DNA of 40,470 nucleotides from Escherichia phage GA2A (NC_031943.1), one strand, 5' to 3'; shown: positions 1-40,470, counted from the first letter of the stretch. Numbers and translations: made by a program. Notes: generated by a model not told the origin, from the letters alone.

Positions 1-165
1 ATCTCACAGTTCAAGAACCTCAAGTCTCCCCATAGGCCCTCTTTCAGTCCAGACCAAAGGCCCTACCCCAGTCTATCATAAGGTTAGACCGATGGTCAAG
101 ACTTCAGGTCAACGATAGGTTGTGGCTATTGGTGGTGGTGGAGACGATAGGTTGGGACTATTGGT
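1..165. repeat. Left direct terminal repeat
   Basis: 1-165 is identical to 40274-40438 at the other end of the window; T7-like genomes carry a terminal redundancy of about this size. Confidence 0.85.
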
Positions 166-587: not shown

Positions 588-897
588 GATTTACCAAGCA
601 GCAAGACGCTACCAAGGACTGGCAGCAGGTACACTCTAAGCGCCTCACTAAGAGTAAATTGAGAGGTCGGGCTTCACCGAGTGAAGAAGGTCTGGTTGTC
701 GGATACTAAGTCACTACCTATAGCGCGGTGACAGACAAGGTTAGGAACTACCTAATACCTCGGAGGTTGACGACCTCAACGCTCTTTAACAATCTGGATA
801 AACTCTTAATGTGCGCCGATAGCGACTAACTACAGGGTCTTTGAGTCTACATCTGAAGGCCCTGACTGATAGTCACTAACTTAAATAGGGTAACATT

Positions 898-1074: not shown

Positions 1075-1137
1075 TTAACTACAGGTCGTTAACTCATAGC
1101 GGCCTGACTGATAGTCACTAACTATAGGATAAACAAG

Positions 1138-2105: not shown

Positions 2106-2299
2106 GTCTTGCACTATTGATAGCCATAGGCTATGGACTTATCGCATACGTGCTGGTGATAGACATCAACAAAGCGCGTAAAGTCTACAAATTCAACTAT
2201 GTACGTCTGGGCCGCTGGACTGTACGTCAACCTAACGGACGATTCATGCGCAACTTAGCGAACGTCTGGGATATAGCAACACTTGGGAGCAAAATGTAA
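2102..2299 (+). CDS. Hypothetical small membrane protein, 65 aa
   Basis: Track ORF; N-terminal hydrophobic segment LALLIAIGYGLIAYVLVI; start overlaps previous stop. Confidence 0.4.
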   Translation: MSLALLIAIGYGLIAYVLVIDINKARKVYKFNYVRLGRWTVRQPNGRFMRNLANVWDIATLGSKM

Positions 2300-2625
2300 T
2301 GAACAAGTCTTACGGGATTAATCTGGTACACTCTATGGCCGCAGAAATGAACATGTTAAGCCTACTGGCTACAGGGTATCGCCACGGAACGTCCTCACAC
2401 ACCGAACGTCAACAGCAGGAGCGAGATCGTGTACTTCAGGCAAGACTCCGGGCCGAGGGCCATAAGTCCGAGCTAATGTGTCTGGCGTATGGTGGACAAC
2501 CAATCACTGACGATGGGAAACTTTTGGTCTCAGGCTGGAAGGCGATAGACCAACGGTCAGCCATCAAGCACACGACTCATGGTGACTTCAGTCATCTTCA
2601 CGCTAACCCACTGATATGCAAGTGA
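2299..2625 (+). CDS. Hypothetical early protein, 108 aa
   Basis: Track ORF; ATG overlaps previous stop (ATGTAATGA); immediately upstream of the RNAP gene. Confidence 0.45.
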   Translation: MNKSYGINLVHSMAAEMNMLSLLATGYRHGTSSHTERQQQERDRVLQARLRAEGHKSELMCLAYGGQPITDDGKLLVSGWKAIDQRSAIKHTTHGDFSHLHANPLICK

Positions 2626-2632
2626 TTCTGAC

Positions 2633-2655
2633 TTAACTATCACTATAGGACTCTG
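2633..2655 (+). promoter_or_regulatory. Phage-RNAP-type promoter upstream of the RNAP gene
   Basis: TTAACTATCACTATAGGA at 2633-2650 matches the consensus shared by 10 other sites in this window. Confidence 0.6.
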
Positions 2656-2722
2656 GGTCTAAGACTACAAGTGAAAGACCAAAGAGACTTTAAGTGAAAG
2701 ACTAATAACAAGGACTTTAAGT

Positions 2723-5404
2723 ATGAGCGTCATCTCTATTGACAAACATGACTTCTCTGATGTGTCGAACGCTATTGAGCCGTTTAACCTGCTGGCAGAC
2801 CACTACGGGCAAGACCTTGCAGTCAAACAACTTCAGCTTGAGCATGAGGCATACACTGAAGGCGAGCGACGTTTCATCAAGAACCTTGAGCGTCAGACTG
2901 AGCGCGGGGAACTGGCAGACAATCAGGTAGCTAAGCCTCTTATGCAGACTCTGGTCCCTAAGATTGCGCAAGCTGTCAAGGAGTGGCATGAAGGTCCAGA
3001 CGGGAAGCTGTCAACCTCTCGTCCGAGCGTAGCGTTCACCATGTTGAGCACTGAAGAGAAGGCCGTCAAGGACCGCTCTCTGCGCATCTCCTGTGAGTCT
3101 GCTGCGGTTATTATACTGAAGGTCATCCTCTCCAAGCTGGTCAAGCCTGAAGGGATACCGATTACACCAATGGCCTCCGCGATAGGGCGCACACTTGAGG
3201 ATGAAATCCGCTTCGGTCGCATCCGTGACAAGGAGCAGGAGCACTTCAAGAAGGCAATAGCTGAGAACCTGAACAAGCGGGCTGGGGCATCCTACAAGAA
3301 AGCCTACATGCAAGCGGTTGAGACCTCCATGCTGGAGCAAGGCCAGCTTGAAGATGCGTGGGGAACTTGGAGTCCGACCGAGGCTGTCCACGTTGGAATC
3401 AAGATGCTTGAGATTGTCATCCAGTCAACGCAACTGGTCGAGCTTAAGCGCTACGGTGCTGGCAATGCAGCGACTGACGTCGAGATGGTCCACCTGTCAG
3501 ACTTCTGGGTCAAGAAGATGGCACAACGAGGATTCAGCCTTGCGGGTATCGCTCCAGTCTACCAACCTTGCGTCGTGCCACCTAAGCCGTGGACTGGTGT
3601 AGTAGGCGGTGGGTACTGGGCCAAAGGTCGCAGACCGTTGCCATTGATTCGCTTAGGGTCTAAGTCTGCGGTGGCACGTTATGAAGATGTGTACATGCCT
3701 GAAGTATACGACGCTGTTAACATCATCCAGAATACACCTTGGAAAGTTAACAAGAAGGTGCTGGACGTGGTGAATATGGTCGAGAAGCTGAATAACACGC
3801 CTATTGACGACATCCCTCAGATGGAACCACTGAAGCCTGAAGACTATGCGGGAGAGACTGAAGAGGAACTCAAGGCATGGAAGAAAGCTGCTGCTGGTAT
3901 CTATCGCCGCGAGAAGGCCAGACAGTCACGCAGGTTGTCACTGAGCTTTATCGTTAACCAAGCGAACAAGTTCTCTCAGTTCAAGGCCATATGGTTCCCG
4001 TATAACATGGATTGGCGAGGCCGTGTCTACGCTGTCCCTATGTTCAACCCTCAAGGTAACGACATGCAGAAGGGTCTCCTGACTCTGGCAGTCGGCAAGC
4101 CTATTGGTGCTGACGGTTTTAAATGGCTGAAGGTCCACGGTGCAAACTGTGCGGGTGTTGATAAAGTCACCTTCGAGGAGCGCATCAAGTGGGTGGAAGA
4201 CAACCACGACAACATCATGACTGCTGCTAAGGCACCGATGGATAGCATTGAGTGGTGGGGCAAGTTAGACTCTCCGTTCTGCTTCCTAGCGTTCTGCTTC
4301 GAGTATGCTGGCGTAATGCACCACGGACTGTCCTACAACTGCTCGCTACCGATAGCGTTCGATGGGTCCTGCTCTGGTATTCAGCACTTCAGCGCGATGC
4401 TTCGTGACCACATCGGTGGACATGCAGTAAACCTGACGCCATCCGGTAAGGTACAGGACATCTACCGCATCGTATCTGACCGCATTGAGGAGGAGCTTAA
4501 AGTCCTGCTGATTAACGGTACGGACAACGAGATGGTAACGCACGAGGACAAGAAAACTGGTGAGATTACCGAGCGTCTCAAGCTGGGGACAAGAGAGCTG
4601 GCCCGTCAGTGGCTGACCTACGGTATGTCACGCAAGGTAACTAAGCGTTCGGTCATGACTCTGGCCTATGGGTCGAAAGAGTATGGCTTCGCAGACCAAG
4701 TTTACGAGGACATCGTGATGCCAGCGATTGACTCAGGGTCTGGCGCTATGTTCACTGAACCAAGCCAGGCGTCTCGCTTCATGGCTAAGATGATTTGGGA
4801 AGCAGTGAGTGTGACCGTAGTTGCTGCGGTTGACGCGATGAAGTGGCTTCAAGGTGCTGCCAAGCTGCTGGCTGCTGAAGTGAAGGACAAGAAGACTGGA
4901 GAAATCCTGAAGCCTTGCCTTCCAGTGCACTGGGTCACACCTGATGGTTTCCCTGTCTGGCAGGAATACCGCAAGAAGGATACCACTCGTCTTAACCTGA
5001 TGTTCTTAGGGTCGTTCAACCTTCAACCTACGGTCAACAAAGGGTCGAAGAAAGAGCTGGATAAGCACAAGCAGGAGTCCGGTATCAGCCCTAACTTTGT
5101 ACACTCACAGGACGGCAGTCACCTGAGGAAGACTGTGGTCCACACCCACAGCAAGTATGGCGTGATGTCCTTCGCGGTGATTCACGATAGCTTTGGGACT
5201 ATCCCTGCTGACGCTGAGTTCCTGTTCAAGGGTGTCCGTGAGACGATGGTCGAGACCTACCGCGACAACGATGTGCTGCAAGACTTCTACGAGCAGTTCG
5301 CGGACCAGCTTCACGAGACCCAGCGCGACAAGTTGCCTGAGTTACCGAAGCGCGGTAAACTGAACATCGAAGACATTCTGTCATCTGACTTTGCATTCGC
5401 CTAA
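2723..5404 (+). CDS. 1: T7-like single-subunit DNA-dependent RNA polymerase
   Basis: 893 aa versus 883 aa for T7 RNAP; C-terminus SSDFAFA matches the T7 RNAP C-terminal FAFA; conserved polymerase-core segments in the middle. Confidence 0.97.
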   Translation: MSVISIDKHDFSDVSNAIEPFNLLADHYGQDLAVKQLQLEHEAYTEGERRFIKNLERQTERGELADNQVAKPLMQTLVPKIAQAVKEWHEGPDGKLSTSRPSVAFTMLSTEEKAVKDRSLRISCESAAVIILKVILSKLVKPEGIPITPMASAIGRTLEDEIRFGRIRDKEQEHFKKAIAENLNKRAGASYKKAYMQAVETSMLEQGQLEDAWGTWSPTEAVHVGIKMLEIVIQSTQLVELKRYGAGNAATDVEMVHLSDFWVKKMAQRGFSLAGIAPVYQPCVVPPKPWTGVVGGGYWAKGRRPLPLIRLGSKSAVARYEDVYMPEVYDAVNIIQNTPWKVNKKVLDVVNMVEKLNNTPIDDIPQMEPLKPEDYAGETEEELKAWKKAAAGIYRREKARQSRRLSLSFIVNQANKFSQFKAIWFPYNMDWRGRVYAVPMFNPQGNDMQKGLLTLAVGKPIGADGFKWLKVHGANCAGVDKVTFEERIKWVEDNHDNIMTAAKAPMDSIEWWGKLDSPFCFLAFCFEYAGVMHHGLSYNCSLPIAFDGSCSGIQHFSAMLRDHIGGHAVNLTPSGKVQDIYRIVSDRIEEELKVLLINGTDNEMVTHEDKKTGEITERLKLGTRELARQWLTYGMSRKVTKRSVMTLAYGSKEYGFADQVYEDIVMPAIDSGSGAMFTEPSQASRFMAKMIWEAVSVTVVAAVDAMKWLQGAAKLLAAEVKDKKTGEILKPCLPVHWVTPDGFPVWQEYRKKDTTRLNLMFLGSFNLQPTVNKGSKKELDKHKQESGISPNFVHSQDGSHLRKTVVHTHSKYGVMSFAVIHDSFGTIPADAEFLFKGVRETMVETYRDNDVLQDFYEQFADQLHETQRDKLPELPKRGKLNIEDILSSDFAFA

Positions 5405-5695: not shown

Positions 5696-6169
5696 ATGTT
5701 CTTTAACTCCGCACTGAAAGCACGCATCGCAGAACTTGAACTCCACCTGAAGAACAGCGAGGAGCTGAACAACCATAAGTCAGCGACCATTGATAGCCTA
5801 CGGGCTGAGAAGACCAAGCTGGTGGACCGAGTGTCCTACCTTCAAGGCAAGAAAGCGCCAATCAAGGTTAAGCGGATGGTCGGACTGAAGTTCCGGGCGC
5901 TGTTAAACGGCCTCTATCAGCCTACCGAGTTCAAGACCGGGCCGGGCAACTGTGGGAAGAACGTTAAGCACTTCACTGTAACAAAGACCGACCGCACCCT
6001 GACCATCCACCAGCACCACGTTGACGACTCTCAGAAAGACTTCGAGTACCGACTGAGTGACATCGACGGTCGCATCCAGTATGACTATGAGATGGTGCAG
6101 GTTTACGGTGAGGAGGCAGAACAAGAGCGAGCACTTCAGGCGATGATTAGAAGACCACGCTTTGCCTAA
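5696..6169 (+). CDS. Hypothetical protein, 157 aa, N-terminal coiled-coil-like
   Basis: Track ORF; RBS AGAGG; its stop TAA is the first three bases of the next phage promoter; lies where T7 has its replication origin. Confidence 0.55.
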   Translation: MFFNSALKARIAELELHLKNSEELNNHKSATIDSLRAEKTKLVDRVSYLQGKKAPIKVKRMVGLKFRALLNGLYQPTEFKTGPGNCGKNVKHFTVTKTDRTLTIHQHHVDDSQKDFEYRLSDIDGRIQYDYEMVQVYGEEAEQERALQAMIRRPRFA

Positions 6170-6189
6170 ACTATCACTATAGGATTAGA
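6167..6189 (+). promoter_or_regulatory. Phage promoter (phi1.1 position)
   Basis: TAAACTATCACTATAGGA. Confidence 0.8.
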
Positions 6190-6228
6190 CTCAAGGTCAT
6201 GACTCAAAGTCGTGGCCTTCATGATTAA
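6186..6228 (+). promoter_or_regulatory. Conserved hairpin element, probable RNase III processing site (R1.1 position)
   Basis: TAGACTCAAGGTCAT...GTGGCCTTCATGATTA; one of three copies (also 13136-13186 and 37256-37298) at positions matching T7 R1.1, R3.8 and R18.5. Confidence 0.55.
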
Positions 6229-6253
6229 CCCTAAACTCAATCAGGAGCTACAC

Positions 6254-8002: not shown

Positions 8003-8038
8003 ACCCAGTGGCCTTCGCGGACTGCTGGGTTTCTTTGC
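8003..8038 (+). terminator. Early host-RNAP terminator, TE-like
   Basis: Imperfect hairpin CCCAGTGGCC...ACTGCTGGG followed by TTTCTTTG, directly after ligase as for T7 TE. Confidence 0.5.
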
Positions 8039-8060
8039 GTCTGGGCCACCAGCTCGACCC

Positions 8061-8083
8061 TAAGCTATCACTATAGGACAACC
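8061..8083 (+). promoter_or_regulatory. Phage promoter
   Basis: TAAGCTATCACTATAGGA. Confidence 0.75.
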
Positions 8084-8880: not shown

Positions 8881-9045
8881 ATGAGCCTTGAAGAAAAGAA
8901 GTACATCGTGGAACTTGAGGGTCGCGTCCAGTCCTTCGAGGTCCCGGTATACGCCAAGTCTCTGGACGAGGCGACCCTAAAGTCTCAGGAATATGAAGAT
9001 GCTGGTTTCGTGGTAGGCCGCATCAGACCTGAGCTGCACGACTAA
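8881..9045 (+). CDS. 2: gp2-like inhibitor of host RNA polymerase
   Basis: [14 protein letters not shown] matches T7 gp2 SFEVPIYAETLDEA; start at ATG 8881 with RBS GGGAGAGG; stop TAA shared with next promoter. Confidence 0.8.
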
Positions 9046-9065
9046 ACTATCACTTTAGGAACACC
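9043..9065 (+). promoter_or_regulatory. Phage promoter (phi2.5 position), variant core CACTTTAGG
   Basis: TAAACTATCACTTTAGGA, one mismatch to consensus. Confidence 0.65.
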
Positions 9066-10938: not shown

Positions 10939-11154
10939 ATGATTAAACTTATCGAATTTCTTGGTCGTCTGGTGGTGCGTGGTTATCGTCGCGCTGCTGT
11001 TATGGAACGAAAGGTAGCAGAGAAGGCTGCTGACGGTGCGGCTGATGCTGCTGCTCTGGCTGATAAGCTGACCATCGCGTCACTTGAAGCTGGCATGAAG
11101 GCACGTCAGGCTGACACCAAAGCTGACCAGTTGGCCCAGTTCTTCAAAGCCTAA
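10939..11154 (+). CDS. Hypothetical protein, 71 aa
   Basis: Internal ATG of track ORF 10849-11154 with RBS AAAGGAG; stop TAA shared with next promoter. Confidence 0.5.
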   Translation: MIKLIEFLGRLVVRGYRRAAVMERKVAEKAADGAADAAALADKLTIASLEAGMKARQADTKADQLAQFFKA

Positions 11155-11174
11155 ACTATCACCTTAGGGATGGG
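11152..11174 (+). promoter_or_regulatory. Phage promoter before primase-helicase, variant core CACCTTAGG
   Basis: TAAACTATCACCTTAGGGA, followed by inverted repeat GGGACAATTAGTCCTGTCCC. Confidence 0.6.
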
Positions 11175-18041: not shown

Positions 18042-18095
18042 GTCTAACCGATAGTCATATCCTATCAATCCAACAGTCATCCATAGGTGAAACAC

Positions 18096-18118
18096 TAAAC
18101 TATCACTATAGGGACTTT
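18096..18118 (+). promoter_or_regulatory. Phage promoter (phi6.5 position)
   Basis: TAAACTATCACTATAGGGA. Confidence 0.8.
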
Positions 18119-18177
18119 AGGACCAAAGATATGACTATAAGATAGACTTTAGTCTTAACTTAAAGAGGAGATTCAAG

Positions 18178-19746: not shown

Positions 19747-21307
19747 ACGTGAAGGGTTCGCTGCTGAAGGCGCGAAGTCAGTTTATGATAGATTAAAGAA
19801 CGGACGACAGCCATATGAGACGCGCGCTCAGAACTGTGCTGCCGTGACCATCCCCTCGCTATTTCCCAAGGAGTCCGACAACTCGTCTACGGAATACGTG
19901 ACGCCGTGGCAAGCTGTAGGTGCTCGCTGCTTGAACAACTTGGCCGCAAAGCTAATGTTGGCGTTATTCCCGCAGTCACCGTGGATGCGACTGACAGTCT
20001 CAGAATATGAGGCCAAGACCTTGAGTCAGGACTCAGAGGCCGCTGCTCGTGTTGACGAAGGGCTGGCTATGGTCGAGCGTGTGTTGATGGCCTACATGGA
20101 GACAAACAGTTTCCGTGTCCCACTGTTTGAAGCTCTGAAGCAGCTTATCGTCTCCGGTAACTGTCTGCTTTACATTCCTCCTCCAGAACAAGGAACCTAC
20201 AGTCCCATGCGAATGTACCGCTTAGTGTCTTACGTTGTTCAACGTGATGCGTTCGGTAACATCTTGCAGATTGTGACTCTCGACAAGGTAGCGTTTAGTG
20301 CTCTACCGGAAGACGTGAAGTCTCAACTCAACGCAGACGACTATGAGCCTGACACCGAGCTTGAAGTGTATACGCACATATACCGTCAGGACGATGAGTA
20401 TCTGCGATATGAGGAAGTGGAAGGCATTGAGGTAACAGGGACCGATGGTTCCTACCCGCTGACTGCATGTCCATACATCCCGGTACGAATGGTTCGACTG
20501 GATGGTGAAGACTATGGTCGTTCTTACTGCGAGGAGTATCTGGGAGACCTGAACTCGCTGGAGACGATTACAGAAGCTATCACCAAAATGGCTAAGGTAG
20601 CCTCCAAAGTGGTGGGCCTCGTTAACCCGAACGGTATCACGCAACCTCGACGTCTGAACAAGGCGGCTACAGGTGAGTTCGTGGCGGGTCGAGTAGAGGA
20701 CATCAACTTCCTGCAACTGACGAAAGGTCAGGACTTTACGATTGCCAAGTCGGTGGCTGATGCTATCGAGCAACGTTTAGGCTGGGCCTTCCTTCTTAAT
20801 AGTGCTGTTCAGCGTAATGCCGAGCGAGTAACTGCTGAAGAGATTCGTTATGTTGCTGGCGAACTGGAGGCGACCTTAGGTGGCGTGTACTCAGTACAGT
20901 CACAAGAGCTTCAGTTACCTATCGTCCGTGTACTGATGAACCAGCTTCAGTCTGCTGGCATGATTCCTGACCTTCCGAAAGAAGCGGTAGAGCCTACGGT
21001 CTCCACTGGTCTGGAAGCTCTGGGCCGTGGTCAGGACTTGGAGAAGCTGACTCAGGCAGTAAACATGATGACTGGTCTTCAGCAGCTCTCTCAGGACCCG
21101 GACATCAACTTGCCGACCCTTAAGCTGCGACTTCTGAACGCTCTGGGTATAGACACCGCTGGCCTGCTCCTGACGCAAGACGAGAAGCTGCAACGTATGG
21201 CTGAACAATCCGCTCAAGGAGCTGTGGTCAATGGTGCGTCTGCTGCTGGTGCTAACATGGGCGCTGCTGTAGGTCAGGGAGCTGGTGAGGACATGGCTCA
21301 AGCCTAA
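19739..21307 (+). CDS. 8: Portal (head-to-tail connector) protein
   Basis: 522 aa; extensive identity to T7 gp8 (YETRAQNCA, TPWQAVGAR, YRLVSYVVQRDAFGN, CPYIPVRMVRLDGEDYGRSY, VTAEEIRYVA, STGLEALGRGQDL). Confidence 0.97.
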   Translation: MAEREGFAAEGAKSVYDRLKNGRQPYETRAQNCAAVTIPSLFPKESDNSSTEYVTPWQAVGARCLNNLAAKLMLALFPQSPWMRLTVSEYEAKTLSQDSEAAARVDEGLAMVERVLMAYMETNSFRVPLFEALKQLIVSGNCLLYIPPPEQGTYSPMRMYRLVSYVVQRDAFGNILQIVTLDKVAFSALPEDVKSQLNADDYEPDTELEVYTHIYRQDDEYLRYEEVEGIEVTGTDGSYPLTACPYIPVRMVRLDGEDYGRSYCEEYLGDLNSLETITEAITKMAKVASKVVGLVNPNGITQPRRLNKAATGEFVAGRVEDINFLQLTKGQDFTIAKSVADAIEQRLGWAFLLNSAVQRNAERVTAEEIRYVAGELEATLGGVYSVQSQELQLPIVRVLMNQLQSAGMIPDLPKEAVEPTVSTGLEALGRGQDLEKLTQAVNMMTGLQQLSQDPDINLPTLKLRLLNALGIDTAGLLLTQDEKLQRMAEQSAQGAVVNGASAAGANMGAAVGQGAGEDMAQA

Positions 21308-21327
21308 ACTATCACTATAGGAACACC
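21305..21327 (+). promoter_or_regulatory. Phage promoter (phi9 position)
   Basis: TAAACTATCACTATAGGA; its TAA is the portal stop codon. Confidence 0.8.
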
Positions 21328-22307: not shown

Positions 22308-22310
22308 GAC

Positions 22311-22333
22311 TAAACTATCACTATAGGGAGACC
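22311..22333 (+). promoter_or_regulatory. Phage promoter (phi10 position) with long 5' UTR
   Basis: TAAACTATCACTATAGGGAGA, closest to the canonical strong T7 class III start GGGAGA; ~105-nt leader with 8-bp inverted repeat TATTACTT/AAGTAATA. Confidence 0.85.
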
Positions 22334-26978: not shown

Positions 26979-27005
26979 CTAATTGAATGGCCTATAGTTT
27001 CAACT

Positions 27006-27028
27006 TAACTATCACTATAGGGACTATA
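27006..27028 (+). promoter_or_regulatory. Phage promoter (phi13 position)
   Basis: TTAACTATCACTATAGGGA, flanked by inverted repeat GGCCTATAGT / ACTATAGGCC. Confidence 0.8.
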
Positions 27029-33800: not shown

Positions 33801-34713
33801 GACCGGAAGTAAGCGCAAGTTTGACGACCGCTGGTTGAAGACTGCTGGTATTTCGGATGAGCAGTGGAAAGGCATTAAGTCCCTCATCCGTGAGTCAGTG
33901 ACTCGTGGTCCAGACGGGAAGTACACCATCAAGGACAAGAAGGCATTCAGTCAGGACCCAAGGGCTATGGACCTCTGGCGTATGGGTGATACCATCGCTG
34001 ATGAGACCCTGCTCCGTCCACACAAGCTGAGCAACATGGATGCCAAGGCGTATGGACCTCTGGCGAAGACTGTCTTGCAGTTTAAGAACTTCGTCATCAA
34101 GTCCATCAACGGGAGGACCATGCGTACCTTCTACAATGCCACCAAGAACAACAGAGCGATGGACGCCGCACTGTCCACGGTTATGTCTATGGGTCTGGCT
34201 GGAATGTACTACATGGCTCAGTCGCACATCAAGGCTTACGCTATGCAGGAGGGTCGTGACCGAGAGTACCTTAAGCAAGCCCTTAACCCGACAATGATTG
34301 GCTATGCGGCTCTGTCCCGTAGCTCCCACTTGGGTGGTCCTCTTGGTGTCGCCAACATTCTAGGCGGCATCGCTGGGTATGAGGACACTAAGATGCTCCG
34401 TTCGTCTATCCTCCCGCGCTCACCTACAGAGAAGCCTGAACGTGCCGTCACATTTGGTGCGGCTACAAGTGACCCTGTGATGAATGTCGTCGGTAACTTC
34501 TTGGAGCAGGTCCCAGCTTTCGGCTATGCTGCTAACGTTGGTGTTTCGGCATACAACTTGGCTGGCTACCTCAAGGCTGATACTCGTGTCAACGAGCGTG
34601 ACTACATGACCGGGATGTATAACACTTTCCGCGAACTGGTCCCGAACGACCCTATTACGCAGAAGTTGCTTCTTGGAACATTTGAGGAACAAGGCATTCA
34701 CATCAAGGACTAA
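30826..34713 (+). CDS. 16: Internal virion protein D (ejectosome protein) with non-T7 N-terminal domain
   Basis: 1295 aa; from ~residue 190 onward long blocks match T7 gp16 (STWFGFGEATEAE, TGGSPQNL, RLEARETARN, SPTGMQSGASGK, NPAMFG, GTYVPHVY, RPEVKARVDE, ILTGRARR, RAMDLWR, LVPNDP); first ~130 aa lack the T7 transglycosylase signature. Confidence 0.95.
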   Translation: MATRGIRNNNIGNIRVSKDQWEGATGDDGAFVTFDTPDSGVRALAKNLMSYGRQGYDSIEKIINRWAPPNENDTQSYINSVVAATGIPATQSIDLTNPDVLASLSEAIGYHETGSRYNPEVYQQGVARALNGISPKTPPVSAKVFDALTEGLKAKPKVALGENLPTAAGLNIEGQSPEAPNESFGEMFYKATGETMQEREDRSTWFGFGEATEAEVKNSMVGVAIRAGQTEDSLDVIGDVFNPTRWNNHKWTREELDQIRNAGVLPQYYGVITGGSPQNLTELINLALENQKLDQERAKAGTGAQLVAGVIGAGVDPLTYVPIAGQVGKGGKLINKMFTVAAQSGALAGASEIARTSVAGGDAHVAEAIMGGALFGGGMTAIADGLGRALGRNTNEFAGPATRLEARETARNVDGQDLSRLPIQEGEQTFSHQGVKFADVPNEPGSVRLEDGSILIGENPLNPKTRQVFDEVIEPERAAAGVNLGGLTEIGLKLLRSENPEIRGLAADLVRSPTGMQSGASGKIGTTASDVFERLRAVDHRFYNDIDDAVTQALKDPYFQTNFNRDTGAFRQDIYQRVALAIEDGSGNLKAELTPGELKVYDLLKNQFDAKREMMENPAMFGRVDAKSIFPGSRFKGTYVPHVYSNQMKEMYIKELGSPEALQEAIKKSWLTSYASRPEVKARVDEALMEADPTLTPEGLAAAVDKYANDKAYGISHTDMFERSSVMEENINGLVGLENNNFLEARNLFDSDMSIILPNGQPFNVNSLREWDMDKIVPAYNRRVNGDIAIMAGTGKTTKEVKDTVETMMNRAGDDGKLKGEVSTLRDTLKILTGRARRDGADDAALATVMRTMTDLSFFAKNAYMGVQNLTEIGGMLARGNVRAMLHGIPIFRDLAFRSKKMGASEIKELHNVVFGKELDDSIRPSKQDVIDRLRAYSTLSKPAATALGSAKYYTGELAVRSPFTKVLNGTTNYLLDAGRQGFLSDIVEHSLTGSKRKFDDRWLKTAGISDEQWKGIKSLIRESVTRGPDGKYTIKDKKAFSQDPRAMDLWRMGDTIADETLLRPHKLSNMDAKAYGPLAKTVLQFKNFVIKSINGRTMRTFYNATKNNRAMDAALSTVMSMGLAGMYYMAQSHIKAYAMQEGRDREYLKQALNPTMIGYAALSRSSHLGGPLGVANILGGIAGYEDTKMLRSSILPRSPTEKPERAVTFGAATSDPVMNVVGNFLEQVPAFGYAANVGVSAYNLAGYLKADTRVNERDYMTGMYNTFRELVPNDPITQKLLLGTFEEQGIHIKD

Positions 34714-34733
34714 ACTATCACTATAGGAAACGG
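34711..34733 (+). promoter_or_regulatory. Phage promoter (phi17 position)
   Basis: TAAACTATCACTATAGGA; its TAA is the gene 16 stop; followed by hairpin GGGAGGCGCTACCACAGGTCTCCC. Confidence 0.8.
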
Positions 34734-39545: not shown

Positions 39546-39641
39546 CTGAATGAATAACTATAGGTGAAAGCTGCATGAATACGCGGTTAGTAACCTATAG
39601 TTACTACCAGTCTAACTTACTGTTTTACAAGGAGTTTGGAC

Positions 39642-39664
39642 TTAACTATCACTATAGGGAAGAC
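39642..39664 (+). promoter_or_regulatory. Phage promoter near the right end (phiOR position)
   Basis: TTAACTATCACTATAGGGA. Confidence 0.8.
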
Positions 39665-40273: not shown

Positions 40274-40470
40274 ATCTCACAGTTCAAGAACCTCAAGTCT
40301 CCCCATAGGCCCTCTTTCAGTCCAGACCAAAGGCCCTACCCCAGTCTATCATAAGGTTAGACCGATGGTCAAGACTTCAGGTCAACGATAGGTTGTGGCT
40401 ATTGGTGGTGGTGGAGACGATAGGTTGGGACTATTGGTGGTGGTGGAGACGATAGGTTGGGACTATTGGT
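40274..40470. repeat. Right direct terminal repeat plus one extra partial tandem unit
   Basis: 40274-40438 identical to 1-165; 40439-40470 repeats the preceding unit GGTGGTGGAGACGATAGGTTGGGACTATTGGT. Confidence 0.85.

What the first reader, a model, noticed from the sequence alone, without database searches (positions are those of the whole stretch)
2633..2722. Phage-type promoter immediately upstream of the RNA polymerase gene
TTAACTATCACTATAGGA at 2633-2650 matches the late-promoter consensus and sits ~70 nt before the RNAP start codon. In T7 as I recall it, gene 1 is transcribed only from host promoters. A phage promoter here would give the polymerase positive feedback on its own synthesis. 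The leader that follows has internal repeats (AAGTGAAAGAC twice, GACTTTAAGT twice), possibly an R1-like processing site.
Basis: partly seen in the sequence, partly recalled or inferred. Interest (0 to 1): 0.55.

Follow-up and report, generated by a model that had tools for sequence, protein, structure and literature searches.

The report
Phage promoter before its own polymerase gene
This K1F-like (T7-family) phage really does carry one of its own promoters 75 bases before its RNA polymerase gene, which should let the enzyme boost its own production, but every close relative has the same promoter and public records already annotate it, so it is an ordinary feature of this phage group.

Summary
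TTAACTATCACTATAGGA lies at 2633-2650, with predicted +1 at G2648, 75 nt before the RNAP ATG at 2723. It is one of 11 same-strand sites that score 31-38 bits on the phage's own promoter matrix; the next best site in the genome scores 8 bits.

The window is a complete Kayfunavirus (K1F-like) genome. The promoter and leader are conserved in about 220 phage records, including K1F itself. The site is annotated as a promoter in the CR44b, CR8 and PE3-1 records.

In three lineages with different promoter specificities (K1F type, GW1 type, CR8), the site before gene 1 matches that lineage's own consensus. It also tracks the polymerase specificity loop. That is strong evidence for a working promoter.

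T7, T3, SP6 and 52 other T7/T3/K11-like loci have no such site. T7 and T3 instead carry host promoter C plus RNase III site R1 at that position.

The most likely function is positive autoregulation of gene 1 after host-driven bootstrapping. The leader repeats are real (P about 0.003). In read-through RNA the promoter core forms the 5' arm of a conserved hairpin (z about -3.5), which may be an R1-like site but lacks the canonical sequence.

Low novelty.

The parts
2631..2653 (+). 23-bp phage RNAP promoter (-17..+6), ACTTAACTATCACTATAGGACTC, with predicted start at G2648
   Evidence: Leave-one-out score is 31.5 bits. Positions -17..-1 are identical to the promoters at 27020 and 39657. The homologous site is annotated as a promoter in CR44b, PE3-1 and CR8.
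2648..2722 (+). 75-nt A-rich 5' leader of the phage-initiated gene 1 mRNA
   Evidence: Folded alone it has no unusual stability (z = -0.22).
2637..2700 (+). Irregular hairpin of about 22 bp that forms only in read-through (upstream-initiated) RNA. The promoter core UCACU pairs with AGUGA at about +47. Possible R1-like RNase III site.
   Evidence: dG is -20.2 kcal/mol and z is -3.45 to -3.66. An equivalent basal stem is found in Dev2/IME278 (11 bp perfect), Kc166A (7 bp) and the GW1 type. It occupies the position of T7/T3 R1.
2669..2679 (+). Direct repeat AAGTGAAAGAC, copy 1
2692..2702 (+). Direct repeat AAGTGAAAGAC, copy 2, which supplies the 3' arm (AGUGA) of the long hairpin
2686..2695 (+). 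Direct repeat GACTTTAAGT, copy 1. It contains ACTTTAAG, which from my own knowledge is the T7 gene 10 leader 'epsilon'-like motif.
2713..2722 (+). Direct repeat GACTTTAAGT, copy 2, filling the spacer between the Shine-Dalgarno sequence and the ATG
   Evidence: The 2708-2722 bin is 98% conserved across 23 relatives.
2710..2714 (+). Shine-Dalgarno sequence AAGGA, 8 nt before the ATG
   Evidence: Read directly from the sequence. Invariant in alignment A1.
2723..5404 (+). Gene 1, the single-subunit RNA polymerase (893 aa)
   Evidence: Pfam RNA_pol scores 8e-107 and RPOL_N also hits. It is 98% identical to K1F gp1, with a near-identical specificity loop.
2299..2625 (+). Upstream early gene (gp0.38 homologue, 108 aa). 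Its stop codon lies 5 nt before the promoter.
   Evidence: No Pfam hit.
6165..6187 (+). Next phage promoter (+1 at 6182), followed by a canonical R1.1-like hairpin at 6178-6235
8059..8081 (+). Phage promoter (+1 at 8076), just after a TE-like terminator at about 8003-8040
9041..9063 (+). Phage promoter (+1 at 9058), before the gene 2.5 homologue
11150..11172 (+). Phage promoter (+1 at 11167), before the gene 4 homologue
18094..18116 (+). Phage promoter (+1 at 18111), at the gene 6.5 position
21303..21325 (+). Phage promoter (+1 at 21320), at the gene 9 position
22309..22331 (+). Phage promoter (+1 at 22326, starting GGGAGA), before the major capsid gene
27003..27025 (+). Phage promoter (+1 at 27020), at the gene 13 position
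34709..34731 (+). Phage promoter (+1 at 34726), at the gene 17 position
39640..39662 (+). Phage promoter (+1 at 39657), the phiOR equivalent

Best explanation
The element is a functional promoter for the phage's own single-subunit RNA polymerase. It is class II-like (middle type) and is the leftmost of 11 phage promoters in a complete Kayfunavirus genome. It sits 75 nt before gene 1.

Inferred sequence of events:
1. Host RNA polymerase starts at sigma-70-type promoters near the left end. No terminator-like site is predicted on the + strand before gene 1, so it makes the first gene 1 mRNA.
2. The first polymerase molecules then initiate at G2648 and transcribe their own gene. This adds a positive-feedback loop and makes gene 1 expression independent of the host enzyme once the host enzyme is shut off.
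3. Feedback is presumably limited later by the gp3.5 lysozyme homologue, which in T7 inhibits class II promoters most strongly, and by competition from the late promoters.

In host-initiated read-through RNA, the transcribed promoter core forms the 5' arm of a conserved hairpin at the position of T7/T3 RNase III site R1. Phage-initiated RNA lacks that arm. The two gene 1 mRNA species therefore probably differ in 5' structure and processing.

Shown here: the promoter's identity, its conservation, its co-variation with polymerase specificity, its absence from T7/T3-like phages, and the hairpin.

Inferred, not shown: initiation in vivo, the feedback, the lysozyme limit and any RNase III cleavage.
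For: 1. The site matches the phage's own promoter set. Eleven sites score 31-38 bits against 8 bits for the next best, all on the + strand. Ten 18-mer matches were found against 0.02 expected.
2. The cognate polymerase is encoded immediately downstream. It is 98% identical to K1F gp1, with the same specificity loop apart from one residue. Promoters cognate to the K1F specificity loop have been used experimentally as orthogonal polymerase/promoter pairs (PMC4299498).
3. Conservation is broad. The region is 95-99% identical in 124 of the 220 matching phage records. The promoter core is invariant in 11 Kayfunavirus genomes even though the leader has indels and diverges.
4. The site co-varies with specificity. 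The K1F type has AACTATCACTATAGG with loop RLNLMFLGSFNLQP. The GW1 type has AACCCTCACTATAGG with the T3-like loop RLDLMFLGTFRLQP. CR8 has GGAAGGTACACTATAGG with a divergent loop. In each lineage the site before gene 1 equals that phage's own consensus.
5. Independent annotators marked it as a promoter in CR44b, which has 11 promoters at the same 11 positions, and in CR8 and PE3-1. The Sparklingdew paper lists the same repeat at the 3' end of the gene preceding RNAP (PMC13298934).
6. No terminator-like site lies on the + strand between the left end and 7329.
7. Class II character: the site starts GGA, and in Kc166A it carries CACTGTA, as do only the early/middle-position promoters.
8. A gp3.5 amidase homologue is present.
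9. Precedent: a mapped phage-specific start site directly before RNAP in LUZ100, with a positive-feedback model (PMC10134795).
Against: - There is no transcript-level evidence for any Kayfunavirus in the searchable literature.
- The initially transcribed sequence GGACUC differs from the GGGAGA of the strongest promoter, so strength is unknown.
- Part of the conservation of the promoter core could be due to its role as a hairpin arm. In the Dev2 clade the -3 T-to-A change departs from the consensus but perfects the hairpin.
- Feedback could be quantitatively minor if host transcription already saturates the need for gene 1 product.
Confidence: 0.85

Rival explanations
1. The promoter is real, but its selected role is not polymerase expression. 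As the leftmost phage promoter in a genome without a phiOL-type site, it would mainly let the phage polymerase take over pulling the genome into the cell. Alternatively it would prime replication or concatemer processing. Transcription of gene 1 from it would be a by-product.
For: - The matrix scan finds no other site above 8 bits to the left of 2648, so there is no phiOL equivalent. T7 and T3 both have phiOL at about 400.
- T3 annotates its primary replication origin next to a promoter just after gene 1.
- From established knowledge of T7, transcription by the phage polymerase internalises most of the genome.
Against: - The start site lies 75 nt before gene 1 with no intervening terminator, so every transcript carries gene 1.
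- The promoter at 6182 could serve entry and replication just as phi1.1A/B do in T7.
- The two roles are not mutually exclusive.
- Nothing in the sequence specifically indicates an origin. The primase-type GGGTC in this leader is not conserved in K1F.
Confidence: 0.1
2. The conserved sequence is primarily an RNA element: the 5' arm of an R1-type RNase III processing hairpin in the early polycistronic transcript. Its match to the promoter would be incidental or vestigial, with little initiation from it.
For: - The hairpin at 2637-2700 is significantly stable (z = -3.5) and its basal stem recurs in four sublineages.
- It occupies the position of T7/T3 R1.
- The Dev2-clade substitution at -3 weakens the promoter consensus and perfects the stem.
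- The T3 record annotates promoter/RNase III overlaps: phi1.1/R1.1, phi1.3/R1.3 and phi3.8/R3.8.
Against: - A hairpin arm needs only about 5-11 complementary bases, yet the full -17..+2 promoter is kept.
- The site switches concordantly with the polymerase specificity loop in the GW1 type and in CR8. In CR8 the leader hairpin does not involve the promoter at all.
- The hairlin lacks the canonical AAGGUC...GGCCUU upper stem present at 815-890, 1068-1137 and 6178-6235.
Confidence: 0.04
3. The site is a chance match or a non-functional remnant.
For: None beyond the absence of direct transcript data.
Against: - The expected number of chance matches is 0.02, and there is a 23-bit gap to background.
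- The site is conserved across the genus and co-varies with specificity.
Confidence: 0.01

Closest known systems
Promoter before gene 1 in Kayfunavirus relatives: K1F (AM084414), CR44b (NC_023576, 'predicted promoter' 1814-1836) and PE3-1 (KJ748011, 2874-2896)
   Same: The element is homologous. It has the same 23-bp sequence, the same distance to the ATG, the same leader with the same two repeats, and the same set of 11 promoter positions genome-wide.
   Different: The window differs only by point changes in the leader (CTCTGGGTC against CTCAAGGTC). The PE3-1 record labels the site 'host RNAP promoter', which the sequence does not support.
Citrobacter phage CR8 (Caroctavirus, NC_023548), predicted promoter 3356-3378 before gene 1
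   Same: A phage promoter sits about 80 nt before the RNAP gene, in a sister genus whose RNAP is 79% identical.
   Different: The promoter specificity differs (GGAAGGTACACTATAGG) and so does the specificity loop. The leader hairpin is a 12-bp stem lying wholly downstream of +1.
Pseudomonas phage LUZ100 promoter phi1 (PMC10134795), and the predicted phiA318 promoter before the kinase and RNAP genes (PMC4099482)
   Same: A phage-specific promoter lies directly upstream of the phage RNAP gene. The LUZ100 authors propose positive feedback after host-driven bootstrapping. The phiA318 authors say only that autoregulation is suggested.
   Different: These are distant Autographiviridae. LUZ100 has an experimentally mapped start site and a proposed MarR repressor and lysogeny link, and nothing of that kind is seen here.
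T7 and T3 gene 1 upstream region: E. coli promoter C plus RNase III site R1
   Same: The genomic position is the same, namely the last about 70-100 nt before gene 1. It holds a promoter overlapping a hairpin in the early transcript.
   Different: In T7 and T3 the promoter is a minor host (sigma-70) promoter and the hairpin is a canonical RNase III site. Here the promoter is a phage promoter and the hairpin is non-canonical. None of 52 T7/T3/K11-like loci has a phage promoter there.
Engineered T7 'autogene', with gene 1 under a T7 promoter (Dubendorff and Studier 1991; cited from my own knowledge, not retrieved here)
   Same: The same circuit logic applies: the polymerase gene is driven by its cognate promoter and amplifies itself.
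   Different: The autogene is an artificial construct that needs tight repression and lysozyme to be tolerated. Here the arrangement is natural and part of a lytic programme.

Membership tests
T7-group single-subunit RNAP promoter (23 bp, -17..+6) | Close match to the phage's own repeated promoter consensus, clearly separated from background | tested here: met
   The leave-one-out score is 31.5 bits. The 11 sites score 31-38 bits and the next best scores 8.1 bits. Chance expectation is 0.02.
T7-group single-subunit RNAP promoter (23 bp, -17..+6) | Same orientation as the genes, intergenic or at a gene end, starting with GG at +1/+2 | tested here: met
   The site is on the + strand, begins 5 nt after the stop codon of the upstream ORF, and starts GGA at +1..+3.
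T7-group single-subunit RNAP promoter (23 bp, -17..+6) | Cognate polymerase encoded in the genome, with promoter specificity bases co-varying with the specificity loop | tested here: met
   Pfam RNA_pol hits the downstream gene. Three promoter types pair with three loop types, and the gene 1 site follows its lineage in each.
T7-group single-subunit RNAP promoter (23 bp, -17..+6) | Initiation by the phage polymerase at the predicted +1 | not testable with these tools
   This needs run-off transcription or 5'-end mapping. No such data for a Kayfunavirus turned up in the literature searches.
T7-group RNase III processing site (R1 type) | Irregular hairpin of about 50-65 nt, with stacked upper and lower stems and an internal loop, more stable than shuffled sequence | tested here: met
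   The hairpin spans 2637-2700 with dG -20.2 kcal/mol and z -3.45 to -3.66. Annotated T3 sites give z -4.2 to -4.9.
T7-group RNase III processing site (R1 type) | Canonical upper stem AAGGUCAYC...GRUGGCCUU, as seen in T7/T3 sites and in this genome's own sites | tested here: not met
   Only the GGUCU/AGACC stem (5 bp) with a 15-nt loop is present. Canonical versions occur at 815-890, 1068-1137 and 6178-6235.
T7-group RNase III processing site (R1 type) | Located between cistrons of the early polycistronic transcript, immediately before gene 1 | tested here: met
   The position is the same as R1 in T7 (cleavage near 3138, which I cite from memory; the T7 record used here does not annotate R1) and as the annotated T3 stem-loop at 2908-2956.
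T7-group RNase III processing site (R1 type) | Cleavage by host RNase III | not testable with these tools
   This needs an in vitro cleavage assay or comparison of rnc+ and rnc- hosts.
Self-activating polymerase gene (as proposed for LUZ100 phi1; engineered T7 autogene) | Cognate promoter upstream of the polymerase gene with no terminator between them | tested here: met
   The leader is 75 nt, and no terminator-like site lies on the + strand.
Self-activating polymerase gene (as proposed for LUZ100 phi1; engineered T7 autogene) | An independent bootstrapping route through host promoters upstream | tested here: inconclusive
   There is one good sigma-70-type match at 558-587 (TTGACA-18-TAGTAT), and by eye weaker candidates near 418 and 767. 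The count is no higher than in shuffled sequence. No terminator precedes gene 1.
Self-activating polymerase gene (as proposed for LUZ100 phi1; engineered T7 autogene) | Measured dependence of gene 1 transcription on its own product | not testable with these tools
   This needs time-resolved RNA measurements, with and without rifampicin or with a promoter mutant.

The most novel reading that the evidence does not exclude
The 23-bp promoter is dual-coded. As DNA it recruits the phage polymerase. As RNA, only in host-initiated read-through transcripts, its core is the 5' arm of a processing or structural hairpin, with the duplicated AAGUGAAAGAC offering two alternative 3' arms. Host-made and phage-made gene 1 mRNAs would then have different 5' ends, stability or translation. 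The switch from host to phage transcription would also switch how strongly the polymerase is translated. The element may have arisen in place from the ancestral R1/promoter C region: the T7 R1 5' arm TCTTATCTTACAGGTC matches 11 of 16 aligned positions of the K1F promoter (my alignment by eye).
Probability: 0.25. Interest if true: 0.4.

Novelty: already known. Interest (0 to 1): 0.2.

Why it matters
The arrangement marks a real difference between the K1F/CR8 lineage and the T7 textbook programme. In these phages gene 1 belongs to both the host-transcribed early class and the phage-transcribed class, which implies a self-amplifying polymerase circuit.

That is relevant to people who use K1F-type polymerase/promoter pairs as orthogonal parts, who model T7-like infection dynamics, or who engineer these therapeutic phages. 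Deleting or moving this intergenic region would change polymerase dosage.

It opens no new question. The promoter is already annotated in relatives, and the feedback idea has already been proposed for other Autographiviridae. What is missing is a direct measurement in a Kayfunavirus.

Tried and rejected
- Rfam: the whole window at gathering thresholds gave nothing. Region 2400-2900 at E up to 5 gave only chance hits (mir-186, minus strand, E 0.81; sR18).
- RNAalifold on 9 leaders returned only a weak pairing between +3..+12 and the SD-ATG spacer, with no covariation. Indels between clades make the automatic alignment unsuitable for the hairpin, so I compared single-sequence folds instead.
- The leader folded from +1 alone is no more stable than shuffles (z -0.22), so I dropped the idea of a strong 5' stem-loop specific to the phage-made mRNA.
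- A sigma-70 promoter overlapping the site, like promoter C in T7/T3: the scan found none on the + strand near 2600-2700.
- A phiOL-like promoter at the left end: none was found. The 3-mismatch hits at 197 and 1127 score below 8 bits, and 1127 is the 3' arm of an RNase III-like hairpin.
- A replication-origin reading based on the primase-type GGGTC in the leader: the motif is not conserved in K1F and relatives.
- The original K1F genome paper (Scholl and Merril 2005) and Chen and Schneider 2005 are not held in the library. I could not check whether they discuss this promoter.
- Papers on Kvp1, the SH phages, Hafnia phage Ca, K1B4 and JG068 say nothing specific about it.

Full report
**What is there**

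The sequence TTAACTATCACTATAGGA is at 2633-2650 on the + strand. By analogy with T7-type promoters, the first G after TATA (2648) is the predicted start. An 893-aa ORF begins at 2723 and hits Pfam RNA_pol (8e-107) and RPOL_N. The promoter-to-ATG leader is therefore 75 nt. The preceding ORF (2299-2625, a gp0.38 homologue) ends 5 nt before position -17.

**What the window is**

Bases 1-165 are repeated at 40274-40438, so the window is a complete linear genome with terminal repeats. Its RNAP region is 90-92% identical to the best-matching Kayfunavirus (K1F-like, Studiervirinae) genomes. Its RNAP is 98% identical to K1F gp1.

**Is it more than chance?**

- Allowing 3 mismatches, the 18-mer occurs 10 times, all on the + strand, against 0.02 expected.
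- A looser search adds an eleventh site.
- A -17..+6 matrix scores the 11 sites (+1 at 2648, 6182, 8076, 9058, 11167, 18111, 21320, 22326, 27020, 34726, 39657) at 31-38 bits. Nothing else on either strand exceeds 8.1 bits.
- The leave-one-out score of the 2648 site is 31.5 bits.
- From -17 to -1 it is identical to the sites at 27020 and 39657. It differs from the strongest-looking promoter (22326, GGGAGA) in starting GGACTC.

**Comparative evidence**

The 241-nt stretch around the site matches 220 phage records. Of these, 124 are 95-99% identical, and they include K1F itself.

In an alignment of 11 Kayfunavirus genomes, the promoter core AACTATCACT and the GGACT start are invariant. The leader between them and the Shine-Dalgarno sequence carries indels and substitutions.

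Independent annotators have already marked the site:
- CR44b (RefSeq NC_023576) lists 11 'predicted promoters' at exactly the 11 homologous positions, the first at 1814-1836 before gene 1.
- PE3-1 marks the site too, but labels it 'host RNAP promoter'.
- CR8, in the sister genus Caroctavirus, has a 'predicted promoter' at 3356-3378 before gene 1.
- A 2026 paper on the Kayfunavirus phage Sparklingdew reports eight CTWAACTATCACTATAGG repeats. One lies at the 3' end of SPD_007, the gene preceding the RNAP gene SPD_008 (PMC13298934).

**Co-variation with polymerase specificity**

I fetched 80 IMG/VR loci encoding relatives of the RNAP. I then asked whether any 16-mer in the 250 nt before the RNAP start recurs (2 mismatches or fewer) in the DNA downstream of the gene.

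- Every testable locus with RNAP at least 79% identical gave a recurring promoter-like 16-mer about 90-120 nt before the ATG.
- All 52 loci at 58-65% identity (T7-, T3- and K11-like), plus the T7, T3 and SP6 references, gave 0 or 1 hit.
- As a control, the 450 nt after the RNAP gene in the same 52 loci always contained a 16-mer recurring 3-8 times. The method therefore does find their promoters.

Among the positives there are three different specificities:

| Lineage | Promoter core | Specificity loop |
|---|---|---|
| K1F type | AACTATCACTATAGG | RLNLMFLGSFNLQP |
| GW1 type (L031, L059; RNAP 89% identical) | AACCCTCACTATAGG | RLDLMFLGTFRLQP (T3-like D and R) |
| CR8 (RNAP 79% identical) | GGAAGGTACACTATAGG | divergent |

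In each lineage the site before gene 1 carries that lineage's own consensus. A sequence kept only as an RNA arm, or for some unrelated reason, would not track polymerase specificity like this. I take it as the strongest in-silico evidence that the site works as a promoter.

**Contrast with T7 and T3**

- The T7 record lists no T7 promoter between phiOL (405) and phi1.1A (5848). It places the minor E. coli promoter C at 3113, just before gene 1.
- T3 annotates promoter C and the RNase III stem-loop R1 (2908-2956) before gene 1.
- The window has no phiOL equivalent. The 2648 promoter is the leftmost phage promoter.

**The leader**

Both repeats are real: AAGTGAAAGAC at 2669 and 2692, and GACTTTAAGT at 2686 and 2713. 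On the + strand they occur only in this leader. An 11-nt exact repeat arises in 0.3% of dinucleotide-preserving shuffles of the leader.

Folded from +1, the leader is unremarkable (z -0.22). When upstream sequence is included, the picture changes. The promoter core UCACU (-9..-5) pairs with AGUGA of the second repeat. This closes a hairpin of about 22 bp with several interruptions at 2637-2700 (dG -20.2 kcal/mol, z -3.45 to -3.66).

The same basal stem is found in other sublineages:
- the Dev2/IME278 clade (UAUCACUAAAG/CUUUAGUGAUA, 11 perfect pairs);
- Kc166A (7 pairs);
- the GW1 type.

In the Dev2 clade the single departure from the promoter consensus (T to A at -3) is exactly the change that perfects the stem.

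The hairpin occupies the position of T7/T3 R1. Promoter/RNase III overlaps are annotated in T3 for phi1.1/R1.1, phi1.3/R1.3 and phi3.8/R3.8.

However, canonical T7-group sites have an upper stem AAGGUCAYC...GRUGGCCUU. This genome has such sites at 815-890, 1068-1137 and 6178-6235 (z -3.4 to -4.8). The 2637-2700 hairpin has only GGUCU/AGACC around a 15-nt loop. Whether RNase III cuts it cannot be decided here; I put it at roughly one in three. CR8 has a different 12-bp leader hairpin that does not involve the promoter.

The ACTTTAAG core of the second repeat is the motif found just upstream of the Shine-Dalgarno sequence in the T7 gene 10 leader. This comes from my own knowledge and is a lead only. 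It suggests a role in translation initiation. The SD-ATG bin is 98% conserved.

**How it most likely works**

Host RNA polymerase starts near the left end. The best sigma-70-type match is at 558-587, though the scan as a whole is not enriched over shuffles. It can read through to a TE-like terminator at about 8003-8040, because no terminator-like site precedes gene 1. This yields the first polymerase.

The polymerase then initiates at G2648 and transcribes its own gene, giving positive feedback and independence from the host enzyme.

The site looks class II-like. It starts GGA, and in Kc166A it shares CACTGTA with the early/middle-position promoters only. The genome encodes a gp3.5 amidase homologue. 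In T7 that protein preferentially inhibits class II promoters (established knowledge), which would cap the loop. These steps are inferred. None of them is shown.

**Known or new?**

The element is homologous to an already annotated feature of K1F-like phages and CR8. The circuit idea has been published for LUZ100, with a mapped start site and an explicit positive-feedback model (PMC10134795). For phiA318 the authors say only that autoregulation is suggested (PMC4099482). In phiKMV-like phages the RNAP gene also lies downstream of phage promoters (PMC3765740). The engineered T7 autogene is the synthetic counterpart (my own knowledge).

I could not retrieve the original K1F genome paper. I found no transcript-level data for a Kayfunavirus.

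**Verdict**

- Novelty is 'already known' and interest is low.
- The one mildly interesting residue is the dual use of the promoter as a hairpin arm that only host-made transcripts can form, together with the conserved leader repeats.

Noticed in passing
window 1-165 and 40274-40470: There is a direct terminal repeat (1-165 = 40274-40438), so the window is a complete linear genome. A 54-nt unit within it (112-165) recurs again with a 32-nt offset at 40417-40470. The repeat may therefore be slightly longer or variable at the right end.
   Followed up: partly
window ~199-275: A tandem array of a 16-nt unit (CTAACCAACCTACAGT, about 4.5 copies) lies just inside the left terminal repeat. It is reminiscent of the short repeat arrays near T7-group genome ends, and CR8 annotates similar arrays.
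   Followed up: no
window 815-890, 1068-1137 and 6178-6235: These are three canonical T7/T3-type RNase III-like hairpins (ACAGGUC...GGCCUGA or AAGGUCAUGACU...GUGGCCUU) with z from -3.4 to -4.8. They lie before the ORFs at 898 and 1138 and after the promoter at 6182, and look like the equivalents of R0.3, R0.5 and R1.1.
   Followed up: partly
window 1106-1132 and 864-890: The 3' arms of the two early hairpins carry a promoter-like string (GATAGTCACTAACTATAGG at 1109-1127). It is 3 mismatches from the promoter core but scores under 8 bits. This hints at a sequence kinship between RNase III hairpin arms and promoters in this group.
   Followed up: partly
window ~8003-8040: A TE-like intrinsic terminator (CCCAGTGGCCTTCGCGGACTGCTGGG followed by TTTCTTTG) sits after the ligase region and a small ORF, immediately before the promoter at 8076. 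The simple terminator scan missed it.
   Followed up: no
window 18123-18145: A weak second promoter-like copy (+1 at 18140, 8.1 bits, CCAAAGATATGACTATAAGATAG) lies 29 nt downstream of the promoter at 18111. That leader also repeats GACTTTAG twice.
   Followed up: no
L031 9911, L059 9910 (IMG/VR loci, closest to Cronobacter phage GW1): A Kayfunavirus sublineage has switched to a T3-like promoter core (CCCTCACT) together with a T3-like aspartate and arginine in the specificity loop (RLDLMFLGTFRLQP). This is a natural specificity switch within one genus.
   Followed up: partly
L003 671-693 (PE3-1, KJ748011 2874-2896): The GenBank record labels the homologous 23-bp phage promoter 'host RNAP promoter'. 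This is probably a mislabel.
   Followed up: no
window 2654-2655: The window differs from 8 of the 10 aligned relatives in the leader (CTCTGGGTC against CTCAAGGTC; EP1 and Kc166A differ here too). The A-to-T change adds one pair (U-A) to the CUCU/AGAG stem of the hairpin.
   Followed up: partly
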